Below are positions 2,357 to 5,300 of a stretch of 64,000 bases of DNA, in pieces. The notes beneath the pieces are model-generated. The model was not told the DNA's origin. It saw nothing but the letters and a program-made list of their open reading frames with translations, and made no database searches. Made by a program: the position numbers and the translations under genes. The DNA is from Lingula anatina (lineage: Eukaryota; Animalia; Brachiopoda): contig CM120641.1 of assembly GCA_051362555.1 (NCBI GenBank), positions 806,001-870,000 on the forward strand. The letters run 5' to 3'. How positions within the stretch are numbered: position 1 is the first letter of the stretch; each line of letters opens with the position of its first letter.

Positions 2357-5300
2357 ATGTTCCAGTACGCGACACGTGCCACCTGCACCAGTTTATGTGT
2401 GAAAACCAGCGCTGTGTTGACAGAGCTCAGGTCTGCAACATCAACACAGATTGCAGCGGAGGAGCTGATGAGCTGCAGGATTGTGGTGGGTTGTGACACT
2501 GAATGCTTGAAGCCTTACATTTCAATACAGCATAGATTCACTGTCATTTCATTGTATAAGTTTTTCAACTGGTAACTTATCAGATCCCTTTAGTCTACAT
2601 GCCACAGTGTGCAGAGTGAATATTTCACTTATTCTTTGAAACATTGTTCAGTTTTCAAAGGTTCAATTGCTAAACTGTCAAACAACATCATTTTATTCTA
2701 GATGCCCTGCCCAAAAATGCACATTGCACATTTGAAGATGGTTGGTGTGGTTGGAGGAATGTTGAAAGAGGAGATCATTTTGATTGGAGTAGAAACAGGG
2801 GGTCCACCCCTTCCTTCTCCACGGGGCCCCAGACAGATAACACGTTGAAAAACAAGTCTGGTGAGTTAGCTCAAAAACATGTTTCTTCAAAAAAGCGAAG
2901 TTAAAAAAGATTATTTTTTATTTATAGTTTTATTAAGTTTGTTCAAATTTAATATTTACAGCTGCATCAGTTATGAAATAATTCTGAAAAAAGGTTTTGA
3001 TTGGAAGAAACAATTTAAACTATATTTTCACAAAATCACAGAGACACTGATTATCTTTTAGAATAACCATTAATTAGGCAGTATTCTGAGCACAAAGAAA
3101 TAGCAAATAAGATGATGCTTCTTGGCCCTTGAGTTATCATCTGGACAAAAAACTACATATTCAGCCAAGCTTCTTCTAAAAGCAATTTATTGCCAGTGAC
3201 TTATTGTCACCTGTGTCGGTTAACTTACATCTATTGGTCTGTCCAATAAACAGTTTATTGTCACGATGATTTCCATCGCCACTGTAACAGCTTGAGTGGC
3301 CTTAATTCAAGAATAATTGTTTTTATCTCATACCTGTCAGTAACAATCAAGAACATTCATGATTATTGTTCTTAATGTAAAGCAATACTGGCAACATAAT
3401 ATCAGCAATTGGGTGTTATTTGACCTAGATAATAAAATATGTCTTCATCTTATCTTAATTTCAGCAGTGTAAATCATATTCGTTTCATTTGTACCAAAGA
3501 TGATTTATCTGAAAATTAAAAGCCAATGTTTACAATAACTAGTGTACCGCTGTCTCATGTGTAATGGTCTTACAGCACTTGCTTACTTACTTACTTAAGC
3601 TCTTTGCCAACAGATCACACCTCTAGCCATGCACTATCTGTTCTCCATGCAAATCTCAATACTTGTGTATTTCTCATACAGCTTTTGTAACTTGTATTGC
3701 AGTGCATAGCAATACATTGCATTATTTTATCATTCAAATCCATATACTATTTGTATATTTATATTTTTATAAATACATTGTAGTCACTATCTATTTTGAT
3801 ATTCTTTTAAATGTTTTATAATGATTTTGTAAAATAATACAGGCAATCAAAACACGTTTTCTCCACTTCGCAGGCTACTATTTATACATCGAGGCCAGTA
3901 AGCAGCAGCCACTTGACACCGCTATCCTGGTCAGCAGCAGCTTCCCGCCCCCTCCTGCCATTAACTTTATACCATCATTACCATATTACCAGTCTTGTAA
4001 GGTAGGATATAACTTTATACCATCATTACCATATTACCAGTCATGTAAGGTAGGATATAACTTTATACCATCATTACCATATTACCAGTCTTGTAAGGTA
4101 GGATATAACTTTATACCATCATTACCATATTACCAGTCATGTAAGGTAGGATATAACTTTATACCCTCATTACCATATTACCAGTCTTGTAAGGTAGGAT
4201 ATAACTTTATACCCTCATTACCATATTACCAGTCATGTAAGGTAGGATATAACTTTATACCCTCATTACCATATTACCAGTCTTGTAAGGTAGGATATAA
4301 CTTTATACCATCATTACCATATTACCAGTCATGTAAGGTAGGATATAACTTTATACCATCATTACCATATTACCAGTCATGTAAGGTAGGATATAACTTT
4401 ATACCATCATTACCATATTACCAGTCTTGTAAGGTAGGATATAACTTTATACCATCATTACCATATTACCAGTCTTGTAAGGTAGGATATAACTTTATAC
4501 CATCATTACCATATTACCAGTCTTGTAAGGTAGGATATAACTTTATACCATCATTACCATATTACCAGTCATGTAAGGTAGGATATAACTTTATACCCTC
4601 ATTACCATATTACCAGTCTTGTAAGGTAGGATATAACTTTATACCCTCATTACCATATTACCAGTCATGTAAGGTAGGATATAACTTTATACCATCATTA
4701 CCATATTACCAGTCTTGTAAGGTAGGATATAACTTTATACCATCATTACCATATTACCAGTCTTGTAAGGTAGGATATAACTTTATACCATCATTACCAT
4801 ATTACCAGTCATGTAAGGTAGGATATAACTTTATACCATCATTACCATATTACCAGTCATGTAAGGTAGGATATAACTTTATACCATCATTACCATATTA
4901 CCAGTCTTGTAAGGTAGGATATAACTTTATACCATCATTACCATATTACCAGTCTTGTAAGGTAGGATAGCTTAGGATGTATGGCAGAGAAAGGTTCCCA
5001 TTGAAGCCAGCAACTTGTGGCTCTTTCATGAAAAAATGCCCCAAATTTAACATAGTGTCTTTGAAATGGCAGCCAATTTAAAGATGGAGCTCAAAATTGA
5101 CTTGAGTCATGATTATCTATTGCAGAGAACTTATTTTTAAGAAATGATATACTGTATCTCTCTTTCTCTTTTTCTCTCTCTCCCTCTCATATATATATAT
5201 AAAAATAATTCTAATGATAAGCATTCATTTGTAAATGTCTTATAACTAAAGTGCCTTTATCTATCACCTGTTTCCAATCCTTTTGTTATTTCCTCTCTAG

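What the first reader, a model, noticed from the sequence alone, without database searches (positions are those of the whole stretch)
3874..4970. ALK MAM exon carries an array of 21 identical, in-frame 5' splice donors (48-bp unit = 16 codons)
Seen: the last 40 nt of exon 3874-4001 plus the first 8 nt of its intron are amplified 21 times. Every copy keeps AAG|GTAGGA, the unit is a multiple of 3, and the exon frame has no stop across the array (unit peptide [16 protein letters not shown]). Splicing from donor k (after 4001+48(k-1), up to 4961) to the acceptor at 5301 would give an intact receptor with 0-20 extra 16-aa units (up to 320 aa) inside the MAM domain. Established: this Cys precedes the [12 protein letters not shown] strand, and extra unpaired extracellular Cys activate RTKs such as RET and FGFR through disulfide dimers. 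Inference: a repeat-encoded donor ladder could tune ectodomain length and free-Cys number in ALK, or the cell must have a way to select only donor 1.
Basis: partly seen in the sequence, partly recalled or inferred. Interest (0 to 1): 0.88.

Follow-up and report, generated by a model that had tools for sequence, protein, structure and literature searches.

The report
Repeated splice donors in brachiopod ALK
In the lamp shell Lingula, the end of one ALK receptor exon and its splice signal are copied 21 times in frame into the next intron, but the spliced RNA reads whose origin can be traced use only the first signal, so this is most likely an ordinary repeat of a kind already known from human and lancelet genes rather than a dial for receptor length.

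Summary
The array is real: 3962-4969, 21.0 copies of a 48-bp unit, each with AAG|GTAGGATA, open only in the exon frame. The gene is Lingula anatina ALK/LTK. Unit sequence at raised depth in 3 of 3 DNA runs laid argues against an assembly artefact. In polyA run X12, 19 of 19 reads reaching 4001 go on into exon 5301 and none enters 4002-4030. In X13 and X14, 10 reads make that joint and 10 carry the unique exon straight before the unit; none was shown to use a later donor. Against a clean verdict: X13 has 3 sense reads with tandem units and X14 about 2 reads running into the intron, so some array-containing RNA of unknown fate exists. Depth is low and all informative RNA is from one study. This matches known boundary-spanning minisatellites (human F7, LMNB2, CBS, 6-16; amphioxus 'mirages'), where the first donor dominates. 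The scan has found this kind before on other DNA (21 notes, at least 11 genomes). One oddity remains: all three unit variants seen are silent in the exon frame. Verdict: new member of a known kind; a functional ladder is unsupported but not excluded.

The parts
3874..4001 (+). Authentic ALK exon (128 nt) in the second MAM domain, ends ...YYQSCK; donor 1 at 4001
   Evidence: RNA joint 2859->3873 (cut +1) in 24 reads and 19 reads leaving at 4001 into exon 5301; tblastn with P0009
3962..4969 (+). 48-bp minisatellite, 21 copies; copy 1 is the true exon end plus intron +1..+8
   Evidence: unit contigs at raised depth in DNA runs X1, X3, X5
4002..4961 (+). 20 further in-frame units, each ending in a pseudo-donor (4049, 4097 ... 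4961); intronic in the traced mRNA
   Evidence: zero X12 depth at 4002-4030
4962..5300 (+). Unique remainder of the intron (339 nt), with an in-frame TAG at 4968-4970; acceptor AG at 5299-5300
5301..5464 (+). Next MAM exon, begins LRFFYHMYG
   Evidence: joint 4959->5299 (cut +2) in 3 and 7 reads
2702..2860 (+). Upstream exon (start of second MAM domain)
   Evidence: RNA joints
2356..15631 (+). Part of the ALK/LTK gene inside the window (LDLa exon to last exon; the first MAM domain is not found in the window)
   Evidence: 24 tblastn matches to P0009 residues 183-1531; Pfam MAM, LDLa, ALK_LTK_GRD, tyrosine kinase

Best explanation
The array is a boundary-spanning minisatellite in Lingula ALK: a 48-bp piece across the exon-intron junction is repeated 21 times, traceable spliced reads use the first donor, and the other 20 donors are likely passed over because the spliceosome takes the first suitable donor after the exon's acceptor. 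Shown: the repeat, its presence in other DNA runs, donor-1 splicing in three polyA runs. Inferred: origin by one tandem duplication followed by slippage or unequal crossing-over; copy-number variation between animals; selection of donor 1 by exon definition or 5'-to-3' scanning as demonstrated for human F7; removal of copies 2-21 with a 1299-nt intron; at most a small leak to later donors or into unspliced RNA. The open frame is likely luck of the breakpoints and not a function.
For: X12: 19 reads leave at 4001 and continue with exon 5301; mean depth 7.52 over 3983-4030 equals 19x19/48, leaving nothing for 4002-4030; no back-joint listed. X13 and X14: 3 and 7 reads join 4961->5301 with a shorter side of at most 37 letters, which is the donor-1 geometry, and 3 and 7 reads carry the unique exon straight before the unit. 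0 of 9 cluster proteins hold a second unit; a search with exon plus two units returned only the one-unit protein. The loop that would be lengthened has the same length in 10 of 11 ALK-like proteins from other animals, is 7 residues shorter in one and longer in none; the Cys is present in 11 of 11. Published cases: F7, LMNB2 and PDGF use only the first donor (PMC1557585); amphioxus mirages do not disturb splicing (PMC3087553). A second boundary-spanning array 58 kb away is out of frame except for its last copy, so such arrays arise here without a coding payoff.
Against: X13 has 3 sense reads (2 starts) with a 48-base back-joint, as many as its spliced-joint reads, and no reads in the unique intron 4980-5279. 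X14 has about 2 reads running into the intron. X12 shows no intronic depth in its two upstream introns, so the array intron may be treated differently. All three unit variants seen (A>C and T>A in the window, A>G in X5) are silent, about 0.9% by chance if independent (0.208 cubed). Only 62 of 2485 enumerated junction duplications at this exon would be in frame and open (62 of 213 if at most 8 intronic bases are taken). The array genotype of the X12 animal(s) is unknown, and they differ from the window at exon positions 3923 and 3962. Informative RNA is from one study, about 6% of each run was read, and tissues are not given. Human CBS and 6-16 do use their second and third donors.
Confidence: 0.78

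Rival explanations
1. The array has a cis-regulatory effect. Twenty extra U1-binding sites would slow or divert removal of this intron, so that long alleles give more intron-retaining or lightly extended RNA (donor 2-3, as in CBS and 6-16) and somewhat less normal ALK. Full retention ends at the TAG at 4968-4970 and would be a decay substrate.
For: Array-containing sense reads in polyA runs X13 (3 reads, 2 starts) and X14 (about 2 reads into the intron), against zero intronic depth over about 1.2 kb of upstream introns in X12. Use of the first pseudo-sites is reported for CBS and 6-16.
Against: These may be only 2-3 molecules. A 1-kb array collapsed on one unit gathers ordinary pre-mRNA reads. 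X12, the deepest run, has none. One unspliced-looking read also lies across the upstream acceptor in X18.
Confidence: 0.13
2. A functional in-frame donor ladder. Later donors are used in some tissue or stage and add 16-residue units, each with one extra Cys, to the loop before the LRFFY strand of MAM2. This would change dimerisation or ligand response, and coding constraint keeps the unit's changes silent.
For: Frame open across all 21 units; breakpoint just avoids the native stop; three of three unit variants silent. The unit maps to a loop ending at the start of strand 97-106 in the model, so an insertion need not break the sandwich. The X13 tandem-unit reads could be ladder mRNA.
Against: No read was shown to join a later donor to exon 5301; 0 of 19 in X12. 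No database protein has extra units. Loop length is conserved across ALK-like proteins. Silent variants can also come from exchange with copy 1, which is coding. The finding was picked for being in frame, which inflates the apparent improbability.
Confidence: 0.07
3. Assembly artefact: the array is a mis-assembled expansion of one exon end.
For: The exact number 21 was not checked on long reads; no genome or long-read run was available.
Against: Unit and unit-junction contigs stand at raised depth in DNA runs X1, X3 and X5 from three studies. X1 differs from the window at all of its depth at several sites, so it is probably another animal. Tandem-unit reads occur in RNA; the units carry structured variants.
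Confidence: 0.02

Closest known systems
Human F7 IVS7 37-bp VNTR (Borensztajn et al. 2006, PMC1557585; read: abstract, introduction passages, Discussion)
   Same: First unit spans the exon-intron junction; identical pseudo-donors follow; only the most upstream donor is used; pseudo-sites that keep the frame are also ignored.
   Different: 5-9 copies with only 4 exonic bases and a unit not divisible by 3; here 21 copies, 40 exonic bases and every step in frame. Pseudo-site function was tested there and not here.
Human 6-16 (IFI6), CBS intron 13, LMNB2 and PDGF intron 4 minisatellites (as summarised in the introduction of PMC1557585; original papers not read)
   Same: Reiterated donors in 10-25 copies; first donor dominant.
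   Different: 6-16 and CBS also use the two nearest pseudo-sites; such use is not shown here.
Amphioxus 'mirages' in Adh3 and globins BflGb6/BflGb9 (PMC3087553; read: abstract and section passages)
   Same: Tandem duplications of exon-intron boundaries in a marine invertebrate, on donor or acceptor side, length-unstable, not disturbing normal splicing.
   Different: Units there are 10-160 bp and more diverged (81-100% in BflGb6); this array is nearly homogeneous and wholly in frame; different phylum.
ALK/LTK receptor tyrosine kinases (RefSeq XP_013386485-90, Lingula anatina)
   Same: Host gene: 98% identity in the aligned part of the last exon; MAM-LDLa-MAM-glycine-rich-kinase architecture.
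   Different: No annotated isoform carries extra units. One 2015 model (P0003, also P0009) has Phe in place of the unit's Cys.

Membership tests
ALK/LTK receptor kinase (host gene) | Two MAM domains, LDLa, ALK/LTK glycine-rich domain and tyrosine kinase | tested here: met
   Pfam on P0006 and P0009; P0009 maps exon by exon on the window
Boundary-spanning minisatellite ('mirage') | First unit spans a true exon-intron junction | tested here: met
   Junction at 4001 used in RNA; unit = 40 exonic + 8 intronic nt
Boundary-spanning minisatellite ('mirage') | Head-to-tail copies reiterate the intact splice site | tested here: met
   21 of 21 copies AAG|GTAGGATA
Boundary-spanning minisatellite ('mirage') | Copy number varies between individuals | tested here: inconclusive
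   Unit-to-flank contig depth about 4-5 in X3 and 11-12 in X5 against 21 copies in the window; the tool warns that contig depth is no copy number
Boundary-spanning minisatellite ('mirage') | Mature mRNA mainly uses the authentic (most upstream) donor | tested here: met
   19 of 19 in X12; 3 and 7 donor-1-type reads in X13 and X14; low depth, one study
F7-type oriented scanning | Pseudo-donors are functional when upstream donors are removed | not testable with these tools
   Needs minigene mutagenesis
6-16/CBS-type multi-donor minisatellite | Second and third donors are used in mature mRNA | tested here: inconclusive
   None in X12; tandem-unit reads in X13 of unknown fate
Cys-activated RTK (RET/FGFR-like; mechanism recalled, not checked) | Receptor protein with unpaired extracellular Cys forming disulfide dimers | not testable with these tools
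   No extended protein found; Cys96 and Cys180 of the MAM2 stretch are invariant in 10 of 10 rows, pairing inferred

The most novel reading that the evidence does not exclude
A polymorphic, wholly in-frame donor ladder gives a minority of Lingula ALK receptors extra 16-residue, cysteine-bearing units whose ceiling is set by the animal's repeat allele. The array is held to silent changes by translation or by sequence exchange with the coding exon, making it a heritable repeat-length dial on a receptor kinase.
Probability: 0.1. Interest if true: 0.65.

Novelty: new member of a known kind. Interest (0 to 1): 0.22.

Why it matters
As it stands it extends boundary-spanning minisatellites to a brachiopod and fits first-donor selection outside chordates. 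Because every step is in frame, decay triggered by premature stops cannot be what hides later donors, so it is a clean natural substrate for asking how the first of many identical donors is chosen. If a ladder were shown, it would be a repeat-encoded way of varying an RTK ectodomain between individuals.

Tried and rejected
No whole genome is held, so a genome-wide base rate of such arrays could not be computed. RNA run X15 gave 0 reads and X18 gave 1 read on 2330-4030: no test. No RNA holder was listed by the index; RNA runs came by species label. RNA folding of 3940-4120 is no better than shuffles (z -0.07): no support for structural masking of donors. Use of the AG inside the unit (a 9-nt SCK microexon or recursive splicing) left no trace: no inserted letters or letters between joints in the RNA rows. 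A DUF3797 Pfam hit on the repeat ORF has no passing stretch and is treated as noise. Papers: 'Lingula'+'minisatellite' gave 2 irrelevant papers. 'Lingula anatina'+'anaplastic lymphoma kinase' gave only PMC13121700, where term searches found no Alk, Ltk, minisatellite or tandem repeat in the main text (supplements not read). Searches added nothing used. Turri 1995 is not held. No earlier notes on this genome; a word search for silent variants and exon conversion found none.

Full report
Observation. Tandem Repeats Finder reports one array at 3962-4969, period 48, 21.0 copies, 98% matches, no indels. Cutting it by script gives donors at 4001+48k up to 4961, all 21 reading AAG|GTAGGATA. There are four unit types (9, 7, 3 and 2 copies) from two variable positions, a Pro codon CCA/CCC and a Ser codon TCT/TCA, both silent. 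The exon frame is open through all units ([16 protein letters not shown]) and the other five frames are not. The native intron starts GTA GGA TAG; the unit ends one base short of that stop.

Host gene. The last exon matches Lingula anatina 'leukocyte tyrosine kinase receptor' XP_013386486 at 98% over the aligned 44% of the query. Pfam finds two MAM stretches, LDLa, the ALK/LTK glycine-rich domain and a tyrosine kinase, and P0009 maps to 24 stretches between 2356 and 15628. None of the 9 cluster members carries a second unit; two (P0003, P0009) read YYQSFK, with Phe for the Cys. A search with the exon plus two extra units among longer proteins returned only the one-unit protein, which the tool calls weak evidence.

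Protein context. Among 11 ALK-like proteins from other animals, picked from the 75 hits for having a kinase domain, the Cys is present in 11 of 11. The proline-rich loop before it has the Lingula length in 10, is 7 residues shorter in one and is longer in none. In a model of MAM2 (mean pLDDT 83.5) the unit covers the loop after strand 70-74 and ends at the start of strand 97-106. Cys96 and Cys180 are invariant in 10 of 10 rows; that they pair is my inference from MAM domains generally. The RET/FGFR comparison is recalled, not checked.

Is the array real? Three of 10 DNA holders listed were laid. X1 shows summed contig depth 824 at 3983-4030 against about 80-220 elsewhere, and differs from the window at full depth at several sites, so it is probably another animal. 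X3 has a 78-nt contig, one unit plus overlap, at depth 27.9 against 6.0-6.8 beside it. X5 has unit contigs at 408-921 against 79.7 for the contig entering from the exon, a unit-unit junction, and a further silent variant (A>G at the same Pro position). The ratios, about 4-5 and 11-12, suggest different copy numbers, but the tool warns that contig depth is no copy number. The number 21 itself was not checked on long reads.

Which donor is used? Five of 9 RNA runs were laid, about 6% of each (25% of X18); X15 gave 0 reads and X18 gave 1. In X12 (96 reads laid on 2330-4030) the upstream joints have 22 and 24 reads, and 19 reads leave at 4001 and continue with the first bases of exon 5301. Mean depth over 3983-4030 is 7.52, exactly 19x19/48, so nothing lies on 4002-4030; no back-joint is listed. 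Any molecule using a later donor must cross 4001 into 4002, so this is 0 of 19, an upper bound near 15% by hand arithmetic, and mates are not independent. In X13 (13 reads laid on 4900-5499) and X14 (17 reads), 3 and 7 reads join 4961 to 5301 with a shorter side of at most 37 letters, and 3 and 7 reads carry the unique exon directly before the unit: donor-1 geometry. The entry allele seen in these reads is the one that enters the array in X5's DNA, so these haplotypes may carry the array; for X12 this is not known.

Results against this reading. X13 holds 3 sense reads (2 starts) with a joint going back 48 bases, that is at least two tandem units, and has no reads in the unique intron 4980-5279. 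X14 has about 2 reads running to 5040 in the intron and depth 1.7 at 4900-4919, most simply one unspliced fragment leaving the array, although the tables do not prove that these are the same reads. Whether the X13 reads are pre-mRNA, retained intron or ladder mRNA cannot be told, and joints or loose ends under 3 reads are not listed. All informative RNA comes from one study with unnamed tissues. Three of three unit variants are silent, where 30 of 144 possible changes are (0.9% if independent). Only 62 of 2485 enumerated duplications at this junction are in frame and open, or 62 of 213 when at most 8 intronic bases are taken. Both figures are after the fact, since the finding was chosen for its open frame. 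Exchange between the array and the coding first copy would also give silent variants.

Mechanism. Shown: repeat, presence in other DNA runs, donor-1 splicing. Inferred: one duplication across the junction, then expansion by slippage or unequal crossing-over. Donor 1 keeps the exon at 128 nt, whereas later donors give 176 to 1088 nt, and it is likely chosen by exon definition or oriented scanning. No special RNA fold masks the copies (z -0.07). A second array in the window, 103 bp x 3 at 62199-62512, duplicates an acceptor in an ankyrin-repeat-like gene (family name from my reading of its exons); only its last copy gives a frame-keeping 135-nt exon. There too the copy nearest the exon's other end is the usable one.

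Comparison. PMC1557585 (abstract, introduction passages and Discussion read) describes the human F7 37-bp VNTR whose first unit spans the exon 7 junction. Only the most upstream donor is used, even though some pseudo-sites would keep the frame, and mutagenesis supports 5'-to-3' scanning. Its introduction lists LMNB2 and PDGF (first donor only) and 6-16 and CBS (two further donors used). PMC3087553 (abstract and section passages) describes amphioxus 'mirages', length-unstable and not disturbing splicing; I was led to it by an earlier scan note and checked the passages. The scan has 21 similar notes in at least 11 genomes; these are unchecked AI notes and only leads. I found no paper on this Lingula locus; most subscription papers are not covered, and supplements of PMC13121700 were not read.

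Verdict. A real, new member of a known kind. The first donor dominates, a small leak is possible, and a functional ladder is unsupported (about 7-10%). Interest 0.22.

Noticed in passing
window 62199-62512 (+): Second boundary-spanning array: 103 bp x 3, 99% alike, 28 intronic + 75 exonic nt, repeating a splice acceptor (62227, 62330, 62433) in an ankyrin-repeat-like gene; only the last acceptor gives a frame-keeping 135-nt exon.
   Followed up: partly
window 15093-15184 (+): 30-bp coding repeat in the last ALK exon; the window has one more 10-residue unit than P0009, so a coding length polymorphism in the cytoplasmic tail.
   Followed up: partly
P0003 / P0009, position matching window 3996-3998: A second 2015 gene model has Phe instead of the invariant MAM2 Cys, at the edge of the array; real allele or assembly error unknown.
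   Followed up: no
window 24446-25390 (-): Long exon with a Sprouty domain (PF05210, E 1.7e-26), downstream of ALK on the opposite strand; an RTK-feedback regulator of the Sprouty/Spred kind next to an RTK gene.
   Followed up: no
window 58789-59124 (-): Glutaredoxin exon (PF00462), head to head with the ankyrin-repeat-like gene.
   Followed up: no
window 3953-3959: Exonic CCUCCUGCC just upstream of the unit can pair with the donor GGUAGGA in the predicted fold, but the fold is no better than shuffles.
   Followed up: partly
window 63018-63389 (+): Diverged 75-bp tandem repeat (4.6 copies, 84%) ending at a likely acceptor of the ankyrin-repeat-like gene.
   Followed up: no
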